UHGV virus genome: UHGV-1978634
Origin: a virus
Length of the DNA stretch: 39,633 nucleotides
Reading direction: 5' to 3' (one strand)
Under the pieces are notes generated by a model. That model saw nothing but the letters and a program-made list of their open reading frames with translations, had not been told where the DNA came from and did no database searches. Positions 14,715-35,500 of the stretch are shown piece by piece. Each line of letters begins with the position of its first letter. The stretch's first letter is position 1. The position numbers and the translations under genes were made by a program.

Positions 14715-16136
14715 CTACTTGAATGTAACGATATAAATCCCAGAATCTTTTTGCAGTTTGTAATTCCTGCCATCTTCAATCAATTCTACATTCTTACCAT
14801 CTGATTTAGCAATTTCTGCATTCATTCCTGAGTACCAGAAATAAGCATTCATAAACCATTTAGAAGTCAGGTTAAATTTCACAATATTTTTTAGGATTGG
14901 ATAATCAAGATAGATCTGCTTAAGATAATGAGGAAGGTTAGGCTCATTTCTTATATCAATCTTAACTAACCCAGAACGTTTATCCATGCTGTCAATAGAT
15001 GCAATAACTGATTCTAACTTCCTGATTTTATATTCAGACTCGTATTTGAAAGCATTCACATAAATAGATGCCATTGCTACCGAAATGAATAAATAAAATG
15101 CAGTTATCAAATATACAGCATATCTTACCTTAGAATCTTTTATCTTTAGCAAAGGTGTAAGTGCGACCATTAGAAATGCAGGGAAAGACATCAGCACTCT
15201 GGATGATATTATAGCATTGCTAAACATTGCGTAGGGAATAAACAACAATAAGAATGAAATTGGCAATGAGACGGCAAATAACAATGAATCAAGGTATCTT
15301 CCACTTGTGAAAGATTTAACTGCTTGCCACAGACACACTGCGTAAGAAATAACAACGAGCACTGAAACAACTGCTAGTTGAGTCGTCGATAACGAAGTTA
15401 ACAATGAAAATATATAGTTAATATTAGATAAGAACTCGCTAATTCCATCACGATTTAAGTGAACTATTGTCGTGTGGTTGTCAACGTATACATCTGTAGA
15501 AAGCAATGTAGTTGTAGTCTGAACAATGGCAAAGGTGACAACGAATATCACAACGCTGCTTAACACGTATCTCATATTTTCCTTTTGCGTTTTACTATTA
15601 AGCAAGTTGTTTAAAGACTGAAGAATGACAAGGCAGACAAATACAGCAAACGAAGTTTGATAGAAAAAGCTTGCTGCAGTGAGAAGCAGCAGTCTGAAAA
15701 TAAAATTGAATTTATGTTCATACCTAACGGCCGCCAGCATAGCCAAAGAAAACGATGCCGACATTCCAATAACATCAATGTGGTATGACATGTTTTCAAT
15801 ATAAAATGGAGAACAAATTAAAACACATATCGTGATTGTTTTTGCAATCCATTGCTTGCCAAACACAGATTCAGCAAAGTAATTGCAGGCTACTATCATG
15901 ATAACAAATGAAACAACAAGGTTCAGTTGATAAACATCTGGCGAGATCAACTTTCCTGATGAATTCAAAAGGATGTAATACAACTCGGTAAGAAATCGAC
16001 CTTGAGAAGCTAGCCCGATATATCCGTATGAATATCTTGCTACATCATCCACAAAAGGAGGCATATAAAAGAATGGAAGGAAGAAGCAAGCGACTATAAG
16101 TATCGCTGGCATTTCATATCGCGTTAATTTAAACAT
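14715..16136 (-). CDS. Serotype-specific O-antigen glycosyltransferase (GtrC-type polytopic membrane protein)
   Basis: 473-aa highly hydrophobic multi-TM protein, AT-rich, immediately downstream of gtrB in the same operon. Confidence 0.75.
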
Positions 16137-17052
16137 CTTTAGACCCCTTAATTATATATCTTGGTCTTGATTTTACTTCGACATATATTCTGCCAATGTA
16201 TTCCCCAAGCACACCAATACCTATCAACTGAATTCCCCCCAGGAAAAGAATTGAAACCAATAGCGATGGATAACCACGGACAGCATTACCGAACACCAAT
16301 GTGTCGAAAATCATCCACACCCCGTAAAGGAACGAGAGTCCCGCAACAAGTAGACCGATGTAAGTCCACACGCGCAAGGGGAAGGTCGAGAAACTTGTAA
16401 TCCCCTCAAGCGCCAGGTTCCAGAGCTTCCAGCCATTGAACTTTGTGCTTCCGGCAACGCGTTCAGCACGGATGTATTCAACAACATCCGTCTTACCGCC
16501 AACCCAAGATAAAACGCCTTTCATAAACAGGTTACGCTCTGGCAGTAGTTTGATATTTTCTACCATCTCTCGTGACATAAGACGGAAGTCACCAACGTTC
16601 TCTTCAATCTGCGGATTACTAATTTTGTTGTGAAGTTTATAAAACCACTCAGCAGTTTTACGCTTTAACCTACCATCAGTTGATCTGTCAGAGCGCTTTG
16701 CCAGCACCATATCAGCACCTGCCTGCCACTTTTCAATAAGATGAGGAATGACCTCAATCGGGTCTTGCAGGTCAACATCAATTGGAATCACGGCATCGCC
16801 AGTTGCATGGTCTAACCCTGCAAACAATGCTGGTTCTTTACCAAAGTTGCGTGTAAATGACAGCGGAACAACTAGCGGATCAGAAACAGCCAGAGCATTA
16901 ATAATTGACTCCGTAGCGTCTTTGCTTCCGTCATTTATGAAAACAATTTCCACTTCATATGGCTTCAACTCTTCGAATTCACGTACCGTTTTATAAAAAA
17001 TTGGTATCGCTTCTTCTTCATTGAAGACAGGAACTACAAGAGATATCTTCAT
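16129..17052 (-). CDS. gtrB: Bactoprenol glucosyltransferase GtrB (GT2 family)
   Basis: 307 aa; N-terminus [17 protein letters not shown].., DVDLQDP motif, two C-terminal TM helices. Confidence 0.9.
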
Positions 17053-17411
17053 TTCGCATCCCTAAAGACAATGAACTTTGAATAGACGAAACCGCACACC
17101 AGGCTGATGGCGGAAAAGGTGACGAGAGTGATAATTGGAGGAAGTGAACATCTATCAGCAGCCCATCCAACAGTTGCACTCAGTGTTCCCATGAACCCGA
17201 CAAATAACATGTAGCGCATCGTTGTAGTCGATGCTTTGAATGTGAATTTTGCATTCGCGAAGAAGCTAAAACTCACAGCCACAACGAAACCTGCGAAGTT
17301 TGCCAGAGCCTGATTGGTATGCGCGGCATAGATACATACACCAAAAACCACCCAGTGTATAAGTGTGTTCAGCACACCAATCGAGGTGTACTTTGCAAAT
17401 AGCTTTAACAT
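17049..17411 (-). CDS. gtrA: GtrA flippase-like small membrane protein
   Basis: 120-aa four-TM protein directly upstream of and overlapping gtrB. Confidence 0.85.
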
Positions 17412-17560: not shown

Positions 17561-18718
17561 TCACTCCACCTTTTCATCAAGCCAGTCTGCCCACCACTGC
17601 ATCATTTCTCTGCGCTTATCGAGATACTGAGCATGGTTGTAAATTCCGCGTACAGATCCGCCGTTGGCATGTGCCAGTTGTACTTCAATAGCATCAGCAG
17701 GCCATTCGTGCTCGTTCATAATCGTGCTGAATTCATGCCTGAATCCGTGACCGCTTTCCAGACCTTCATAGCCGATTTGTTTGATCACAAGCAGTACCGC
17801 GTTCTCGCAGATTGGCTTCTTCTTATCGTTGCGCCCGGCAAAAACAAACTCTGATACTGGTTTGGTGATTGAGCTTAGCGTAGTGAGAAGTTCAACCACC
17901 TGGTCCGACATCGGGACAACATGAATCTTGCGTCCCTTCATCACACTGGCGTCGATAGTGATAATCCTGTTTTCAAAATCGACGTTCTTCCATTGCATGG
18001 AACGAAGCTCTTTCGTTCTTAGGGCTGTGTAGCGTAAAACTTTGGTCGCAATGAGCGATACGATACTTCCTGAAAATGTTGCCAGTGCTTTGTTGAATGC
18101 AGGGATCTGGTCTGCAGGAAGAAACGGGAAGTTCTTCTTGCGGTATCCCTTCATGGCGTCAGCAAGGTCAGGTGCCGGGTTATATTTAGCCCTTCCGGTG
18201 ACAATAGCGTAACGGAAAACCTCGCCGCATCTTCTGCGTGCTTTGTTGGCTCGCTCCATTGCACCGCGATCTTCAAATCTGCGGATTACTTCCAGAAGTT
18301 GCATCGGCTCAATATCCTGAATTTCAAGGCTGCCGATGATAGGTAAAATGTCGTCATCAAACATTTTGGCAAGTTCAGTTGCATAGCCTACTGACCAGAC
18401 TTGCTTCTTGTGCTCGTACCATTCCTTGTAAATCGCACTAAAGGAATTGTTGTTAGACGAAGCCTTTTTCGCCTTTACCGGATCGATGCCAACCGAGATG
18501 TCTTTCCTCGCAGTCCATGCTTTATCCCTTGCCTCCTGCAAAGTCATAAGCGGATATTTTCCGACGGTCAGGATTTTCTCCTTACCGTCAATCTTGTAGC
18601 GAAGCTGCCATACCTTTTTCCCTGACACAGGGACATAAAGGTACAGGCCATTACCATCGAGAAGGCGGTATGGTTTTTCTTTCGGCTTTGCTGCTTCAAT
18701 CTGCTTAACGGTGAGCAT
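17561..18718 (-). CDS. int: Tyrosine integrase (P4-type)
   Basis: ORF 17561..18754; first ATG with typical N-terminus MLTVKQIEAAKPKEKPYRLLDGNGLYLYV.. at 18718; C-terminal catalytic region ..HGFRH.. Confidence 0.9.
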   Translation of the reverse strand: MLTVKQIEAAKPKEKPYRLLDGNGLYLYVPVSGKKVWQLRYKIDGKEKILTVGKYPLMTLQEARDKAWTARKDISVGIDPVKAKKASSNNNSFSAIYKEWYEHKKQVWSVGYATELAKMFDDDILPIIGSLEIQDIEPMQLLEVIRRFEDRGAMERANKARRRCGEVFRYAIVTGRAKYNPAPDLADAMKGYRKKNFPFLPADQIPAFNKALATFSGSIVSLIATKVLRYTALRTKELRSMQWKNVDFENRIITIDASVMKGRKIHVVPMSDQVVELLTTLSSITKPVSEFVFAGRNDKKKPICENAVLLVIKQIGYEGLESGHGFRHEFSTIMNEHEWPADAIEVQLAHANGGSVRGIYNHAQYLDKRREMMQWWADWLDEKVE

Positions 18719-18967
18719 GGGTAAAAATCCGGTGGGTAAAATTATTTTATCCACTTTTTACCCGTCATGGAGTGCGGCTGTCAACGATCTGACGCGAACC
18801 ATGACGAACTGTAAATCTACGGAAGGCTTGATATTCAGGGGATTTTGCGGACTGGTACGGATGGGAGCGAACTGATAAATGGTGTCCCCTGCAGACATCT
18901 ACTTGAAGCGGCAGGGGATTGATTGGAATGGTGTTTTTTAGATGTGAAAAATATTTTACCCGCTATT
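18719..18967. other. Candidate attP between xis and int, with tRNA-Arg(argW)-like 3-prime-end core at 18880-18894
   Basis: tggtgtcccctgcag is the reverse complement of ctgcaggggacacca, which I recall as the 3-prime end of E. coli argW; flanked by inverted tcccctgc / gcagggga and by five TTTTACCC/GGGTAAAA motifs. Confidence 0.5.
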
Positions 18968-19168
18968 TTACCCATTGGCGCGGCTTAAGAGCTTATTTTT
19001 GAATTCACAATGGTCACGATATAACCATCTTGCTCGCCCGTGGATAACTTTGGCTTTAGGCAGGTCCCCGGACTTAATCCGGTCATAGATGAAGGTTTTA
19101 CCAAAGCCAGTATCAGCCATGATGAATTTCAAATCAACCAGTGAATCAGGCTGTAGTTCGTGTTGCAT
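18968..19168 (-). CDS. xis: Excisionase / recombination directionality factor (TorI/AlpA-like)
   Basis: ORF 18968..19183; 66-aa product from ATG at 19168 (MQHELQPDSLVDLKFIMADTGFGKTFIYDRIKSG..) resembles the winged-helix Xis/TorI family. Confidence 0.7.
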   Translation of the reverse strand: MQHELQPDSLVDLKFIMADTGFGKTFIYDRIKSGDLPKAKVIHGRARWLYRDHCEFKNKLLSRANG

Positions 19169-19212
19169 GAGTGCTATCTCCAAATAGGGAATCGAACCTG
19201 CAAATCAGGCAA

Positions 19213-19233
19213 TAAAAAACCGCCATTAGGCGG
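19213..19233 (-). terminator. Rho-independent terminator (minus strand)
   Basis: ccgcc-taat-ggcgg hairpin followed by T6 on the minus strand; overlaps the stop of the 55-aa ORF. Confidence 0.55.
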
Positions 19234-19393
19234 CTTGGTGTTCTTTCAGTTCTTCAATTCGAATATTGGTTACGTCTGCATGCGCTATCTGCGCCCACAG
19301 CATCCAGTGGTCATAGCAGTCGTTGATGTTCTCCGCTTCGATAACTCTGTTGAATGGTTCTCCATTCCATTCACCTGTGACTCGGAAGTGCAT
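19226..19393 (-). CDS. Hypothetical small protein (55 aa)
   Basis: My own translation MHFRVTGEWNGEPFNRVIEAENINDCYDHWMLWAQIAHADVTNIRIEELKEHQAA; GGAG RBS about 8 nt upstream; terminator at stop. Confidence 0.4.
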   Translation of the reverse strand: MHFRVTGEWNGEPFNRVIEAENINDCYDHWMLWAQIAHADVTNIRIEELKEHQAA

Positions 19394-35093: not shown

Positions 35094-35168
35094 TTTTTAT
35101 TTGGGTCAGTCGTATAAAGGTCATTACGGAAGGCTGTTAACCTTCTTATCGTGGTTCGAGTCCACGCT
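35094..35168 (+). tRNA. tRNA-Asn (anticodon GTT)
   Basis: Manual cloverleaf: acceptor gggtcag/ctgtccc (one mismatch), anticodon stem gaagg/ccttc, loop ctGTTaa, T-arm cgtgg-ttcgagt-ccacg, 3-prime gcca. Confidence 0.7.
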
Positions 35169-35173
35169 GTCCC

Positions 35174-35249
35174 GCCAAATATGCTGGTTTAGCTCCAATG
35201 GTAGAGCAGTCGCCTTGTAAGCGAATGGGTAGCGGTTCAAGTCCGTTAA
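35174..35249 (+). tRNA. tRNA-Thr (anticodon TGT)
   Basis: Manual cloverleaf: acceptor gctggtt/aaccagc, D-arm gctc-caatggta-gagc, anticodon loop ctTGTaa, T-arm agcgg-ttcaagt-ccgtt, 3-prime acca. Confidence 0.8.
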
Positions 35250-35500
35250 CCAGCACCATAACTGAGCCGTAGCCACTGGCTATCCTGAATTCATCAGTGA
35301 TAGTTACGCTGCGGCCTTCTACACATGACCTTCGTGAAAGCGGGTGGCAAGAGGTTGCGCTAACAACCTCCTGCCGTTTTGCCCGTGCATATCGGTCACG
35401 AACAAATCTGATTGCTAAACACAGTAGCCTGGATTTGTTCTATCAGTAATCGACCTTATTCCTAATTAAATAGAGCAAATCCCCTTATTGGGGGTAAGAC

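What the first reader, a model, noticed from the sequence alone, without database searches (positions are those of the whole stretch)
18719..18973. Five copies of TTTTACCC/GGGTAAAA and an 8-bp inverted repeat around the candidate att core
GGGTAAAA occurs at 18719-18727 and 18734-18741, and TTTTACCC at 18755-18763, 18954-18961 and 18966-18973, clustered at the int promoter and the xis 3-prime end. tcccctgc (18885-18892) and gcagggga (18910-18917) form an inverted repeat around the core. These are plausible arm-type and core-type binding sites for Int or Xis.
Basis: seen in the sequence. Interest (0 to 1): 0.45.

Follow-up and report, generated by a model that had tools for sequence, protein, structure and literature searches.

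The report
Known integrase arm sites in attP
The repeated GGGTAAAA boxes are the already-characterised docking sites of the IntS integrase in the attachment site of an Sf6/HK620/KplE1-type phage, so the finding is real but ordinary. The small inverted repeat is not a standard core-site pair, although it is unexpectedly conserved.

Summary
GGGTAAAA occurs five times in the 39.6-kb window, all within 18719-18973, and there is a sixth 7/8 copy at 18745-18752. The 8-bp inverted repeat exists at 18885-18892 / 18911-18918.

The locus is the torI-attP-intS recombination module of KplE1/HK620/Sf6 phages, which integrate into tRNA argW. IntS is 383/385 identical to E. coli K-12 IntS and TorI is 66/66 identical. 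Each att arm differs from K-12 attL or attR by two bases.

Published work shows that the IntS arm-type (P') sites all contain TAAA. P'1 overlaps the intS -10 box and mediates autorepression. TorI (the Xis equivalent) binds different boxes of GTTCG type, all five of which are present here.

Comparative data agree. The boxes persist at the same positions in Klebsiella and Erwinia phages and in about 17 further Enterobacterales lineages. They change in concert to GGGCATAW in Salmonella phages whose integrase has diverged.

One arm of the inverted repeat lies inside the 16-bp core and the other inside a lambda-H'-like IHF site. The 18-bp spacing rules out a canonical core-type pair. The complementarity is conserved in 18 of 22 lineages, with two compensatory changes, and remains unexplained.

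The parts
18968..19168 (-). torI/xis (recombination directionality factor), 66 aa
   Evidence: The protein is 66/66 identical to E. coli K-12 TorI and matches PDB 1z4h, 'Tor inhibition protein'.
18966..18973 (-). Arm-type box GGGTAAAA on the P arm, distal copy. It overlaps the last codon and the stop codon of torI.
   Evidence: Located. Identical in K-12 attR. Present in attR in 18 of the 21 genome loci printed. Lies within the HK620 'attP' repeat_region annotation.
18954..18961 (-). Arm-type box GGGTAAAA on the P arm, proximal copy, 12 bp start-to-start from the distal one
   Evidence: Supported. It changes to GGGCATAA in the Salmonella phages.
18912..18939 (-). Predicted IHF site: A6 tract, 9 nt, then AATCAAtcccCTG (12/13 to WATCAANNNNTTR). 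The layout resembles lambda H'.
   Evidence: Consensus scan. CAA and T-G are conserved across 22 lineages. Arsenophonus has a perfect AATCAATTAATTA. Binding was not tested here.
18911..18918 (+). Inverted-repeat arm GCAGGGGA. On the tRNA-sense (-) strand it reads TCCCCTGC and is complementary to the core.
   Evidence: Located. The hairpin is the minimum-energy fold in the window and in 18 of 22 lineages. At least 7 of the 8 central pairs form in 17 of 22 lineages.
18879..18894 (-). 16-bp common core CTGCAGGGGACACCAT, which is the 3' end of tRNA-Arg argW.
   Evidence: Prophage junction matches end at 18894 (attL) and start at 18880 (attR). The core sequence is given in PMC2951348. HK620 and Sf6 annotate it as 'attP core'.
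18881..18899 (+). Inferred canonical core: GGTGTC (C' half-site), CCCTGCA (7-bp overlap), GACATC (C half-site)
   Evidence: This is a 5/6 inverted repeat with a 7-bp spacer, and it is perfect (GACACC) in Erwinia EhrS49 and Salmonella S.Inf5-2. GATGT next to the core is conserved in most lineages (G47 and T48 invariant; Erwinia EhrS49, Salmonella and some Pantoea and Edwardsiella lineages vary at the other positions), and it is also present in P4. This is an inference, not shown.
18849..18876 (-). TorI sites I1 and I2 (ATCAGTTC ... ACCAGTCC, 12 nt apart)
   Evidence: The K-12 coordinates in PMC2951348 were mapped through a gap-free alignment. The CGAAC/CGGAC boxes are conserved.
18786..18813 (-). 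TorI sites I3, I4 and I5, 2 nt apart. I4 and I5 repress PintS.
   Evidence: PMC2951348, mapped. Conserved.
18779..18784 (-). PintS -35 box, TTGACA
   Evidence: PMC2951348. The sequence is identical to K-12.
18756..18763 (-). Arm-type box GGGTAAAA, published as P'1. It overlaps the PintS -10 box TAAAAA (18755-18760).
   Evidence: Located. PMC2951348. Identical to K-12.
18745..18752 (-). Degenerate arm-type box GGATAAAA. It covers the intS transcription starts (18749/18748).
   Evidence: Located. It contains TAAA. The transcription start sites come from PMC2951348, mapped. In the Salmonella phages the box reads GGGCACAT.
18734..18741 (+). Arm-type box GGGTAAAA, in inverted orientation, within the intS 5' UTR
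   Evidence: Located. Conserved in the Klebsiella and Erwinia phages.
18719..18726 (+). Arm-type box GGGTAAAA, abutting the intS ATG (18718)
   Evidence: Located. Conserved, and GGGCATAA in the Salmonella phages.
17561..18718 (-). intS, a heterobivalent tyrosine integrase of 385 aa
   Evidence: 383/385 identical to K-12 IntS. Pfam domains: Arm-DNA-bind_3 (residues 2-86), Phage_int_M and Phage_integrase.

Best explanation
The stretch 18719-18973 is the attP site of a P22-like (Lederbergvirus) phage carrying the KplE1/HK620/Sf6 recombination module. On the - strand the order is torI (RDF), attP, then intS.

The six (G)GG(T/A)TAAAA boxes are arm-type sites, bound by the N-terminal arm-binding domain of IntS. 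Two direct copies lie on the P arm at the torI stop codon. Four lie on the P' arm, two in each orientation, spanning -10 to +30 of the intS promoter.

IntS protomers bridge these arm sites and the core (18879-18894, the 3' end of tRNA-Arg argW). Bridging is helped by an IHF bend on the P arm and, for excision, by TorI bound to five separate GTTCG-type boxes on the P' arm.

Because the P' boxes overlap the -10 box and the transcription start, IntS also represses its own gene. TorI bound at I4/I5, next to the -35 box, does the same.

Shown elsewhere and transferred here by near-identity: the core, the P' sites containing TAAA, P'1 overlapping the -10 box, the TorI sites, the promoter, and autorepression.

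Inferred here: that the two P-arm boxes and all four P' boxes are bound, the IHF site, and the exact core-type half-sites.

The 8-bp inverted repeat is a separate, conserved complementarity between the IHF-site region and the core. Its function is not established.
For: (1) Identity with the characterised system. IntS is 383/385 identical and TorI 66/66 identical to K-12. The attL arm and the attR arm each differ from K-12 by 2 bases, with every box identical. Sf6, HK620, N7, HK633 and IME10 match at 97-99%. The HK620 record annotates window 18718-18743, 18743-18764 and 18952-18974 as attP repeats and 18879-18894 as the attP core.

(2) Literature, PMC2951348. The core is the 16-nt CTGCAGGGGACACCAT. 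The IntS arm-type P' sites all carry TAAA, and P'1 overlaps the -10 box (TAaAAa). IntS represses PintS about 5-fold. TorI sites are GTTCG/GATCG/GTCCG, arranged in blocks I1;2 and I3;4;5. The published primers attL-SpeI and attR-IHF2 match window 18695-18718 and 18973-18992, so the in-vitro substrates span exactly this stretch.

(3) Protein. IntS has an Arm-DNA-bind_3 domain.

(4) Statistics. All 5 exact copies in 39.6 kb fall within 255 bp.

(5) Comparative evidence.
- The boxes are kept at all six positions in the Klebsiella and Erwinia phages, whose attP is about 75% identical overall.
- In Salmonella c341-like phages the Int N-terminal 140 aa are 54% identical. There the boxes at five of the six positions read GGGCAYAW, a concerted change.
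- 18 of the 21 genome loci printed (about 17 distinct lineages, spanning roughly ten Enterobacterales genera) keep TGGGTAAA-N5-GGGTAAAA right after the xis stop codon.

(6) P4. Its integrase is in the same Pfam arm-domain family and 35% identical. It has the same layout: two direct 12-bp arm repeats, the core, then two direct plus one inverted repeat at the int start.
Against: No binding experiment can be run here. The two papers that map all sites, including those on attR (J Biol Chem 282:21798, 2007; Virology 404:41, 2010), are not in the held library. The assignment of the two P-arm boxes and of the IHF site therefore rests on comparative evidence, the HK620 annotation and my recollection.

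PMC2951348 reports that single mutations of P' sites other than P'1 did not relieve autorepression. Not every box is therefore individually required for regulation.

The simple promoter scanner did not recover the published PintS. It reported a different -35/-10 pair.
Confidence: 0.9

Rival explanations
1. The GGGTAAAA boxes are binding sites for the excisionase (TorI/Xis) rather than for the integrase.
For: One pair abuts the xis stop codon, and RDF sites are often direct repeats.
Against: PMC2951348 defines the five TorI sites as GTTCG/GATCG/GTCCG boxes. These map to 18849-18876 and 18786-18813. Mutating them abolishes TorI repression. The paper assigns the TAAA-containing boxes to IntS. The TorI boxes are conserved separately from the GGGTAAAA boxes.
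Confidence: 0.03
2. The inverted repeat TCCCCTGC/GCAGGGGA is the pair of IntS core-type sites, or the outer arm is an extra inverted core-type half-site. IntS catalytic domains bind both copies.
For: The outer arm is an inverted copy of part of the core and tracks it. Rouxiella has core GTAGGGG with arm CCCCTAC. Edwardsiella has core GCAGGGA with arm TCCCTGC. A shared protein recognition sequence would give the same co-variation. The non-Watson-Crick cells show no strand bias (G-U 6, A-C 6), which does not favour an RNA reading.
Against: The arms are 12-26 bp apart and the spacing varies, whereas tyrosine recombinases cleave 6-8 bp apart. The spacer is not shared with attB, so strand exchange cannot span it. 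The core arm covers the probable overlap region rather than a flanking half-site. A canonically spaced inverted repeat, GGTGTC-N7-GACATC, exists.
Confidence: 0.12
3. The inverted repeat acts as an RNA hairpin in the torI-to-intS sense transcript. It mimics a tRNA acceptor stem ending in CACCA. It exists in attP and attR but is replaced by the genuine tRNA in attL. It could be a processing or stability signal that depends on the integration state.
For: The hairpin is the minimum-energy fold at -16.9 kcal/mol, z = -3.5, with 0 of 200 shuffles as stable. It is the minimum-energy fold in 18 of 22 lineages despite a freely varying loop. 74.6% of cells are paired, against 36-54% when the partner is slid. 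There are two compensatory changes in the central stem. In Tatumella the stem starts with G pairing C72, giving a full 7-bp acceptor-like stem. In Klebsiella, Serratia and Pantoea it extends to 10-13 bp with a TTCGA-containing loop.
Against: There is no hit to tRNA or any Rfam family at E <= 10 and none from ARAGORN. There is no U-tract, and no terminator was called there. G-U and A-C mismatches are equally frequent. Covariation barely exceeds the controls, with 3 pairs showing changes on both sides against 1-4 when slid. Transcription across attP is annotated by prediction only. The DNA-level explanations fit equally well.
Confidence: 0.15
4. The inverted repeat has no function of its own. 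The outer arm is conserved because it lies inside the IHF site, and the core arm because it is the tRNA end. The complementarity is incidental.
For: The outer arm overlaps AATCAAtcccCTG, which is 12/13 to the IHF consensus and has an upstream A6 tract. The CAA and T-G consensus positions are among the best-conserved columns. Lineages that lack the arm (Arsenophonus, two Pantoea) still keep an IHF-like sequence. A lone 8-bp inverted repeat of this kind arises by chance at 1.4%.
Against: The four 'N' positions of the IHF consensus are conserved as (T/C)CCC. The first T of TTR is a conserved mismatch (C), and IHF requires neither. The arm changes together with the core in Rouxiella and Edwardsiella.
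Confidence: 0.3

Closest known systems
KplE1 (CPS-53) / HK620 / Sf6 / CUS-3 argW recombination module (IntS, TorI, attL/attR). Sources: Panis et al. 2007 J Biol Chem; Panis et al. 2010 Virology; PMC2951348.
   Same: The proteins are the same (IntS 99%, TorI 100%). The 16-bp core is the same. Each att arm is identical to within 2 bases. The gene order is torI-attP-intS. PintS lies inside the P' arm, and the five TorI boxes are the same.
   Different: Nothing differs at the att site. Here the site is the intact attP of a mosaic phage genome, in which no phage record covers more than 37% of a 24-kb stretch. It is not the split attL/attR of the K-12 remnant.
Satellite phage P4 attP/int (P4-family integrase, leuX target)
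   Same: The integrase has the same domain set and is 35% identical. The layout matches: two direct 12-bp-spaced arm repeats on one arm, a tRNA 3'-end core, and arm repeats in both orientations abutting the int start. GATGT lies just upstream of the core. Int and the RDF both down-regulate int (stated in PMC2951348).
   Different: The arm motif is GGGGGCAYA rather than GGGTAAAA. The target tRNA is different. P4 has no inverted copy of the core's acceptor strand in the P arm.
Bacteriophage lambda attP (P1, P2, P'1-3 arm-type sites; C/C' core-type sites; H1, H2, H' IHF sites; X1, X2 Xis sites)
   Same: The logic is the same. A heterobivalent Int bridges arm-type and core-type sites across IHF bends, and an RDF binds direct repeats on one arm. 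The predicted IHF site has the lambda-H' layout of an A-tract plus WATCAANNNNTTR next to the core (the comparison with lambda rests on established knowledge).
   Different: The RDF sites lie on the int-proximal arm. attP sits between xis and int, so integration separates the two genes. int has its own promoter inside attP and is autorepressed. PMC2951348 presents this as a different paradigm from lambda.

Membership tests
KplE1/HK620/Sf6 argW recombination module | IntS-type integrase and TorI-type RDF | tested here: met
   IntS is 383/385 and TorI 66/66 identical to K-12. TorI matches PDB 1z4h.
KplE1/HK620/Sf6 argW recombination module | attP lies between the RDF gene and the integrase gene, with the int promoter inside the int-proximal arm | tested here: met
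   ORF map and sequence. The -35 box, -10 box and transcription start sites were mapped from PMC2951348 through a gap-free alignment.
KplE1/HK620/Sf6 argW recombination module | 16-nt core CTGCAGGGGACACCAT, identical to the 3' end of argW | tested here: met
   Window 18879-18894. Prophage junctions in about 1,900 E. coli genomes break at this point.
KplE1/HK620/Sf6 argW recombination module | IntS arm-type sites carrying TAAA, one of which overlaps the -10 box, plus five TorI boxes (GTTCG/GATCG/GTCCG) in blocks of two and three | tested here: met
   The sequence is identical to K-12 attL at every box. The definitions come from PMC2951348.
KplE1/HK620/Sf6 argW recombination module | IntS and TorI physically bind these boxes and catalyse recombination | not testable with these tools
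   Shown for K-12 and HK620 substrates in the literature. Transferred here by sequence identity only.
Arm-type sites of a heterobivalent tyrosine recombinase (lambda paradigm) | The integrase has a separate N-terminal arm-binding domain | tested here: met
   Pfam Arm-DNA-bind_3, residues 2-86, E = 2e-25.
Arm-type sites of a heterobivalent tyrosine recombinase (lambda paradigm) | A repeated motif on both arms, distinct from the core, that co-evolves with the integrase | tested here: met
   Six boxes lie on two arms. They are conserved in the Klebsiella and Erwinia phages and change in concert to GGGCAYAW in the Salmonella phages, whose Int N-terminus is 54% identical. They are conserved in 18 of the 21 attR loci examined.
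   The arms are 18 bp apart here and 12-26 bp apart elsewhere. The spacer is not shared with attB. One arm covers the probable overlap itself.
IHF binding site | WATCAANNNNTTR with an upstream A/T tract, lying between the arm sites and the core | tested here: inconclusive
   12/13 match at 18924-18912 (-) with an A6 tract at 18939-18934. The consensus positions are conserved. Sites with one mismatch or fewer occur about 0.4 times per 300 bp in the window by chance. There is no binding data.
Intrinsic terminator (considered for the hairpin) | A G+C-rich stem followed by a U-tract | tested here: not met
   No terminator was called at 18880-18920. The tail reads CACCAUUUAUCAG.
tRNA or tRNA-like element (considered for the hairpin) | A match to tRNA covariance models | tested here: not met
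   ARAGORN finds only tRNA-Asn and tRNA-Thr at 35103-35258. Rfam gives no tRNA hit at E <= 10 in 18700-19250.

The most novel reading that the evidence does not exclude
The conserved complementarity between the P-arm element TCCCCTGC(A) and the att core may form a tRNA acceptor-stem-like hairpin ending in CACCA in the torI-to-intS sense transcript. This structure exists only when the P arm and the core are joined, that is in attP and attR. In attL the genuine argW tRNA replaces it. It could therefore act as an RNA processing or stability signal that depends on the integration state, functionally analogous to lambda sib retroregulation. The DNA-level alternative is an extra inverted core-like IntS or IHF-coupled site needed for intasome assembly.
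Probability: 0.15. Interest if true: 0.55.

Novelty: already known. Interest (0 to 1): 0.18.

Why it matters
As it stands, the finding is a correct re-discovery of a well-studied attachment site. Its main value is for annotation. It fixes attP, the core, the int promoter, the IntS sites and the TorI sites of this phage. It also predicts integration at tRNA argW, with int and xis ending up at opposite prophage ends.

The comparative data add a clean natural experiment. Salmonella c341-like phages have rewritten five of the six arm boxes together with the integrase N-terminus. This could guide specificity-swap experiments for P4-family integrases.

The one open point is why a sequence complementary to the core is maintained inside the IHF site across many genera.

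Tried and rejected
(1) Full site maps. I tried to read the two papers that give them (J Biol Chem 2007, 282:21798; Virology 2010, 404:41) and two later JBC papers. None is held. P-site numbering and the published IHF and core-type sites could therefore not be checked.

(2) Literature search for the motif. A full-text search for 'GGGTAAAA' plus 'integrase' returned only unrelated primer lists.

(3) Viral contigs. A scan with an IntS N-terminal alignment returned 80 loci, all 99-100% identical to the window. It was useless for covariation.

(4) Integrase relatives. tblastn of IntS against phages shows a gap between 61% and 40% identity, so only four diverged attP lineages were available from phage records.

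(5) Promoter and terminator scan. It did not recover the published PintS, probably because the published -10 (TAAAAA) lacks the T the scanner requires at position 6. It found no terminator at the hairpin.

(6) Rfam and ARAGORN. Nothing was found at the hairpin.

(7) RNA versus DNA. I asked whether non-Watson-Crick cells favour the RNA sense strand. They do not (G-U 6, A-C 6).

(8) Generality in the P4 family. The inverted copy of the core is absent from P4 attP.

(9) Rejected readings. I rejected the boxes as Xis sites, as chance A/T-rich promoter elements, and the inverted repeat as a canonical C/C' pair. Reasons are given under the rival explanations.
Full report
**What is in the sequence**

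On the - strand the region reads as follows:
- a 66-aa ORF (19168-18968);
- a 249-bp non-coding stretch;
- a 385-aa ORF that starts at ATG 18718 and ends at 17561;
- three further ORFs of 120, 307 and 473 aa.

The exact octamer GGGTAAAA occurs five times in the 39,633-bp window on both strands together. All five lie in 18719-18973: 18719-26 (+), 18734-41 (+), 18756-63 (-), 18954-61 (-) and 18966-73 (-). The expectation for the whole window is 0.92. From base composition, 0.009 copies are expected in 255 bp (P about 5e-13). It is the only octamer with four or more copies in any 255-bp span of the window. One of 100 block shuffles reached five. A sixth, 7/8 copy (GGATAAAA, - strand) lies at 18745-52.

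The inverted repeat TCCCCTGC (18885-92) / GCAGGGGA (18911-18) is exact, with 18 nt between the arms.

**What the locus is**

The 751 bp around the finding match Shigella phage Sf6, coliphages HK620, N7, HK633 and IME10 and others at 97-99%. About 1,900 of 5,426 complete E. coli genomes hold it split in two. One half ends at window 18894 next to tRNA-Arg and intS. The other half starts at 18880 next to torI. These are prophage junctions.

The shared segment, 18879-18894, is the reverse complement of CTGCAGGGGACACCAT. This is the 16-nt core of the KplE1 (CPS-53) prophage at tRNA argW (PMC2951348). HK620 and Sf6 annotate it as 'attP core'.

The 385-aa protein is 383/385 identical to K-12 IntS. 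It carries Arm-DNA-bind_3, Phage_int_M and Phage_integrase domains. The 66-aa protein is identical to K-12 TorI, whose structure is PDB 1z4h.

Aligned with K-12, the int-proximal arm differs at 2 positions from attL, and the torI-proximal arm differs at 2 positions from attR. There are no gaps, and every GGGTAAAA box is identical.

The window is therefore an intact attP of the KplE1/HK620/Sf6 module in a mosaic P22-like phage. No phage record covers more than 37% of a 24-kb stretch.

**What is already known about these boxes**

PMC2951348 reports the following.
- The intS promoter lies inside attL, with -35 TTGACA and -10 TAaAAa. Transcription starts at a T and an A.
- The IntS arm-type sites (P') all contain TAAA, and P'1 overlaps the -10 box.
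- IntS represses its own promoter about five-fold.
- TorI binds five sites, with the mutated sequences GTTCG, GATCG and GTCCG. They form block I1;2 (12 nt apart) and block I3;4;5 (2 nt apart). I4 and I5, next to the -35 box, mediate TorI repression.

I anchored the paper's chromosome coordinates on the end of argW. The gap-free alignment then gives these window positions:
- -35 box at 18784-18779;
- -10 box at 18760-18755;
- transcription starts at 18749 and 18748 (T and A, as published);
- I3-I5 at 18813-18786, reading TACAGTTC gt CATGGTTC gc GTCAGATC;
- I1-I2 at 18876-18849, reading ATCAGTTC, 12 nt, ACCAGTCC.

The box at 18756-63 is therefore the published P'1. The boxes at 18745-52, 18734-41 and 18719-26 occupy the transcription start, the 5' UTR and the position next to the ATG.

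The published in-vitro substrates are delimited by primers identical to window 18695-18718 (attL-SpeI) and 18973-18992 (attR-IHF2). The whole finding therefore lies inside DNA that has been shown to recombine with IntS, TorI and IHF. The HK620 GenBank record already marks window 18718-18743, 18743-18764 and 18952-18974 as attP repeats.

**Independent comparative test**

Nine attP sequences were aligned: the window, HK620, Sf6, two Klebsiella phages, two Erwinia phages and two Salmonella c341-like phages.
- The Klebsiella and Erwinia sites are about 75% identical to the window overall. They keep GGGTAAA at each of the six positions and CGAAC at each of the five TorI positions.
- In the Salmonella phages the N-terminal 140 residues of Int are only 54% identical. 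The boxes at five of the six positions read GGGCATAA, GGGCACAT, GGGCATAT, GGGCATAA and GGGCATAA. The positions are kept and the sequence has changed in concert, which is the behaviour expected of sites that co-evolve with a DNA-binding domain.

A scan of one genome per species with a TorI alignment gave 27 loci. I printed 21 of them. In 18, the xis stop codon is followed by TGGGTAAA-N5-GGGTAAAA with 12-bp start-to-start spacing. These cover about 17 distinct lineages and roughly ten Enterobacterales genera, including Serratia, Citrobacter, Dryocola, Pantoea, Tatumella, Rouxiella, Edwardsiella and Arsenophonus. The rest of the arm diverges.

P4, whose integrase is a 35%-identical relative, has the same layout with its own motif, GGGGGCAYA.

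**Verdict on the boxes**

They are IntS arm-type sites. They are not TorI/Xis sites.

**The inverted repeat**

The left arm (18885-92) lies inside the core and corresponds to argW positions 64-71 on the tRNA-sense strand.

The right arm (18911-18) lies on the P arm. On the - strand it overlaps AATCAAtcccCTG (18924-18912), which matches the IHF consensus WATCAANNNNTTR at 12 of 13 positions. This is preceded by an A6 tract (18939-18934), the layout of lambda H' (the comparison with lambda rests on established knowledge).

An 18-bp gap is incompatible with a pair of core-type sites flanking a 6-8 bp crossover region. The gap ranges from 12 to 26 bp in relatives. The spacer is also absent from attB.

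A canonically spaced candidate does exist: GGTGTC | CCCTGCA | GACATC (18881-18899). It is a 5/6 inverted repeat with a 7-bp spacer that lies inside the identity block. It becomes a perfect repeat (GACACC) in two relatives. GATGT next to the core is conserved in most of the 22 lineages (G47 and T48 are invariant) and also in P4. This assignment is my inference.

The complementarity itself is nonetheless conserved.
- Folded as RNA or as DNA, the tRNA-sense strand gives the hairpin as its minimum-energy structure. As RNA the energy is -16.9 kcal/mol, z = -3.5, and 0 of 200 shuffles fold as well.
- The same hairpin is the minimum-energy fold in 18 of 22 lineages, although the loop sequence varies freely.
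- At least 7 of the 8 central pairs form in 17 of 22 lineages.
- Over 12 pairs, 74.6% of cells are paired, against 36-54% when the partner is slid by 1-3 columns.
- Two singleton compensatory changes fall in the central stem. Rouxiella has core GTAGGGG with arm CCCCTAC. Edwardsiella has core GCAGGGA with arm TCCCTGC.
- In several genera the stem extends to 10-13 bp.

Against over-reading this result:
- the 3' arm is fixed by the host tRNA, so the shuffle control is weak;
- G-U and A-C mismatches are equally frequent (6 and 6), so nothing favours RNA over DNA;
- there is no U-tract, no Rfam hit and no ARAGORN hit;
- three or four lineages lack the arm but keep an IHF-like sequence.

IHF alone does not explain why its four free positions are held as (T/C)CCC, or why a consensus mismatch (C for T) is conserved. 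I leave the function open. The candidates are an extra inverted core-like protein site, an RNA hairpin that mimics a tRNA acceptor stem, and hitch-hiking on the IHF site.

**Conclusion**

The explanation is the established one for this phage family. The novelty is nil for the GGGTAAAA boxes.

Noticed in passing
window 19188-19203 (- strand), 20-35 nt upstream of the torI ATG (19168): TTGCAGGTTCGATTCC is an exact copy of argW positions about 47-62, covering the 5' T-stem strand, the T-loop and CC. The homology ends where the att core would begin. The next 14 nt resemble a decayed core (7/14 matches). This looks like a relic tRNA-Arg 3' half, so torI plus the P arm sit between a tRNA T-arm fragment and the real core. 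An exact 14-mer is expected about 3e-4 times by chance.
   Followed up: partly
window 19217-19236 (-) and 19200-19212 (-): A terminator-like hairpin (AAGCCGCC-TAAT-GGCGGTTT followed by TTTTATTGCC) lies just upstream of torI. It is followed by TTGCCTGATTTGC, which the HK620 record annotates as a cII-binding site of a predicted 'phage integration' promoter. PMC2951348 describes the torI promoter as uncharacterised.
   Followed up: partly
window 19118-19245 (+): There is a weak Rfam match to the enterobacterial sRNA STnc130 (26.4 bits, gathering score 55, E = 0.08), antisense to the 5' end of torI. It is below threshold and probably chance.
   Followed up: no
window 18835-18975 (-): A 46-aa ORF spans the att core. 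HK620 annotates it as hkaB and Sf6 as gene 17. Integration would split it, and it overlaps the IntS, IHF and TorI sites. It is probably not a gene.
   Followed up: no
window 18836-18843: A third copy of CAGGGGA(T) lies on the + strand (ATCCCCTG on the tRNA-sense strand), between TorI sites I2 and I3. It is also complementary to the core. Three of the window's four CAGGGGA copies lie in attP. Only GGGAT is partly conserved in relatives.
   Followed up: no
window 18340-18350: AGGTAAAAT lies inside intS, about 370 bp from the ATG. It corresponds to a fourth 'attP' repeat_region in the HK620 record. GGTAAAA occurs 11 times in the window, so this copy may be chance.
   Followed up: no
window 14715-17411 (-): Three ORFs of 120, 307 and 473 aa lie directly downstream of intS, in the position of the gtrA/gtrB/gtrC O-antigen glucosylation genes of serotype-converting phages. 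Related phage records name a bactoprenol glucosyltransferase and a flippase at this position. I did not test this.
   Followed up: no
window 35103-35258 (+): Two adjacent phage-borne tRNA genes are present: tRNA-Asn(GTT) and tRNA-Thr(TGT).
   Followed up: no
E. coli genome records, e.g. NZ_CP081786.1 (39,448 bp) and NZ_CP146940.1: Seventeen complete E. coli genomes hold the uninterrupted attP. Several of these are small 'plasmid' records of phage-genome size. They are likely excised or circular phage genomes assembled as plasmids.
   Followed up: no
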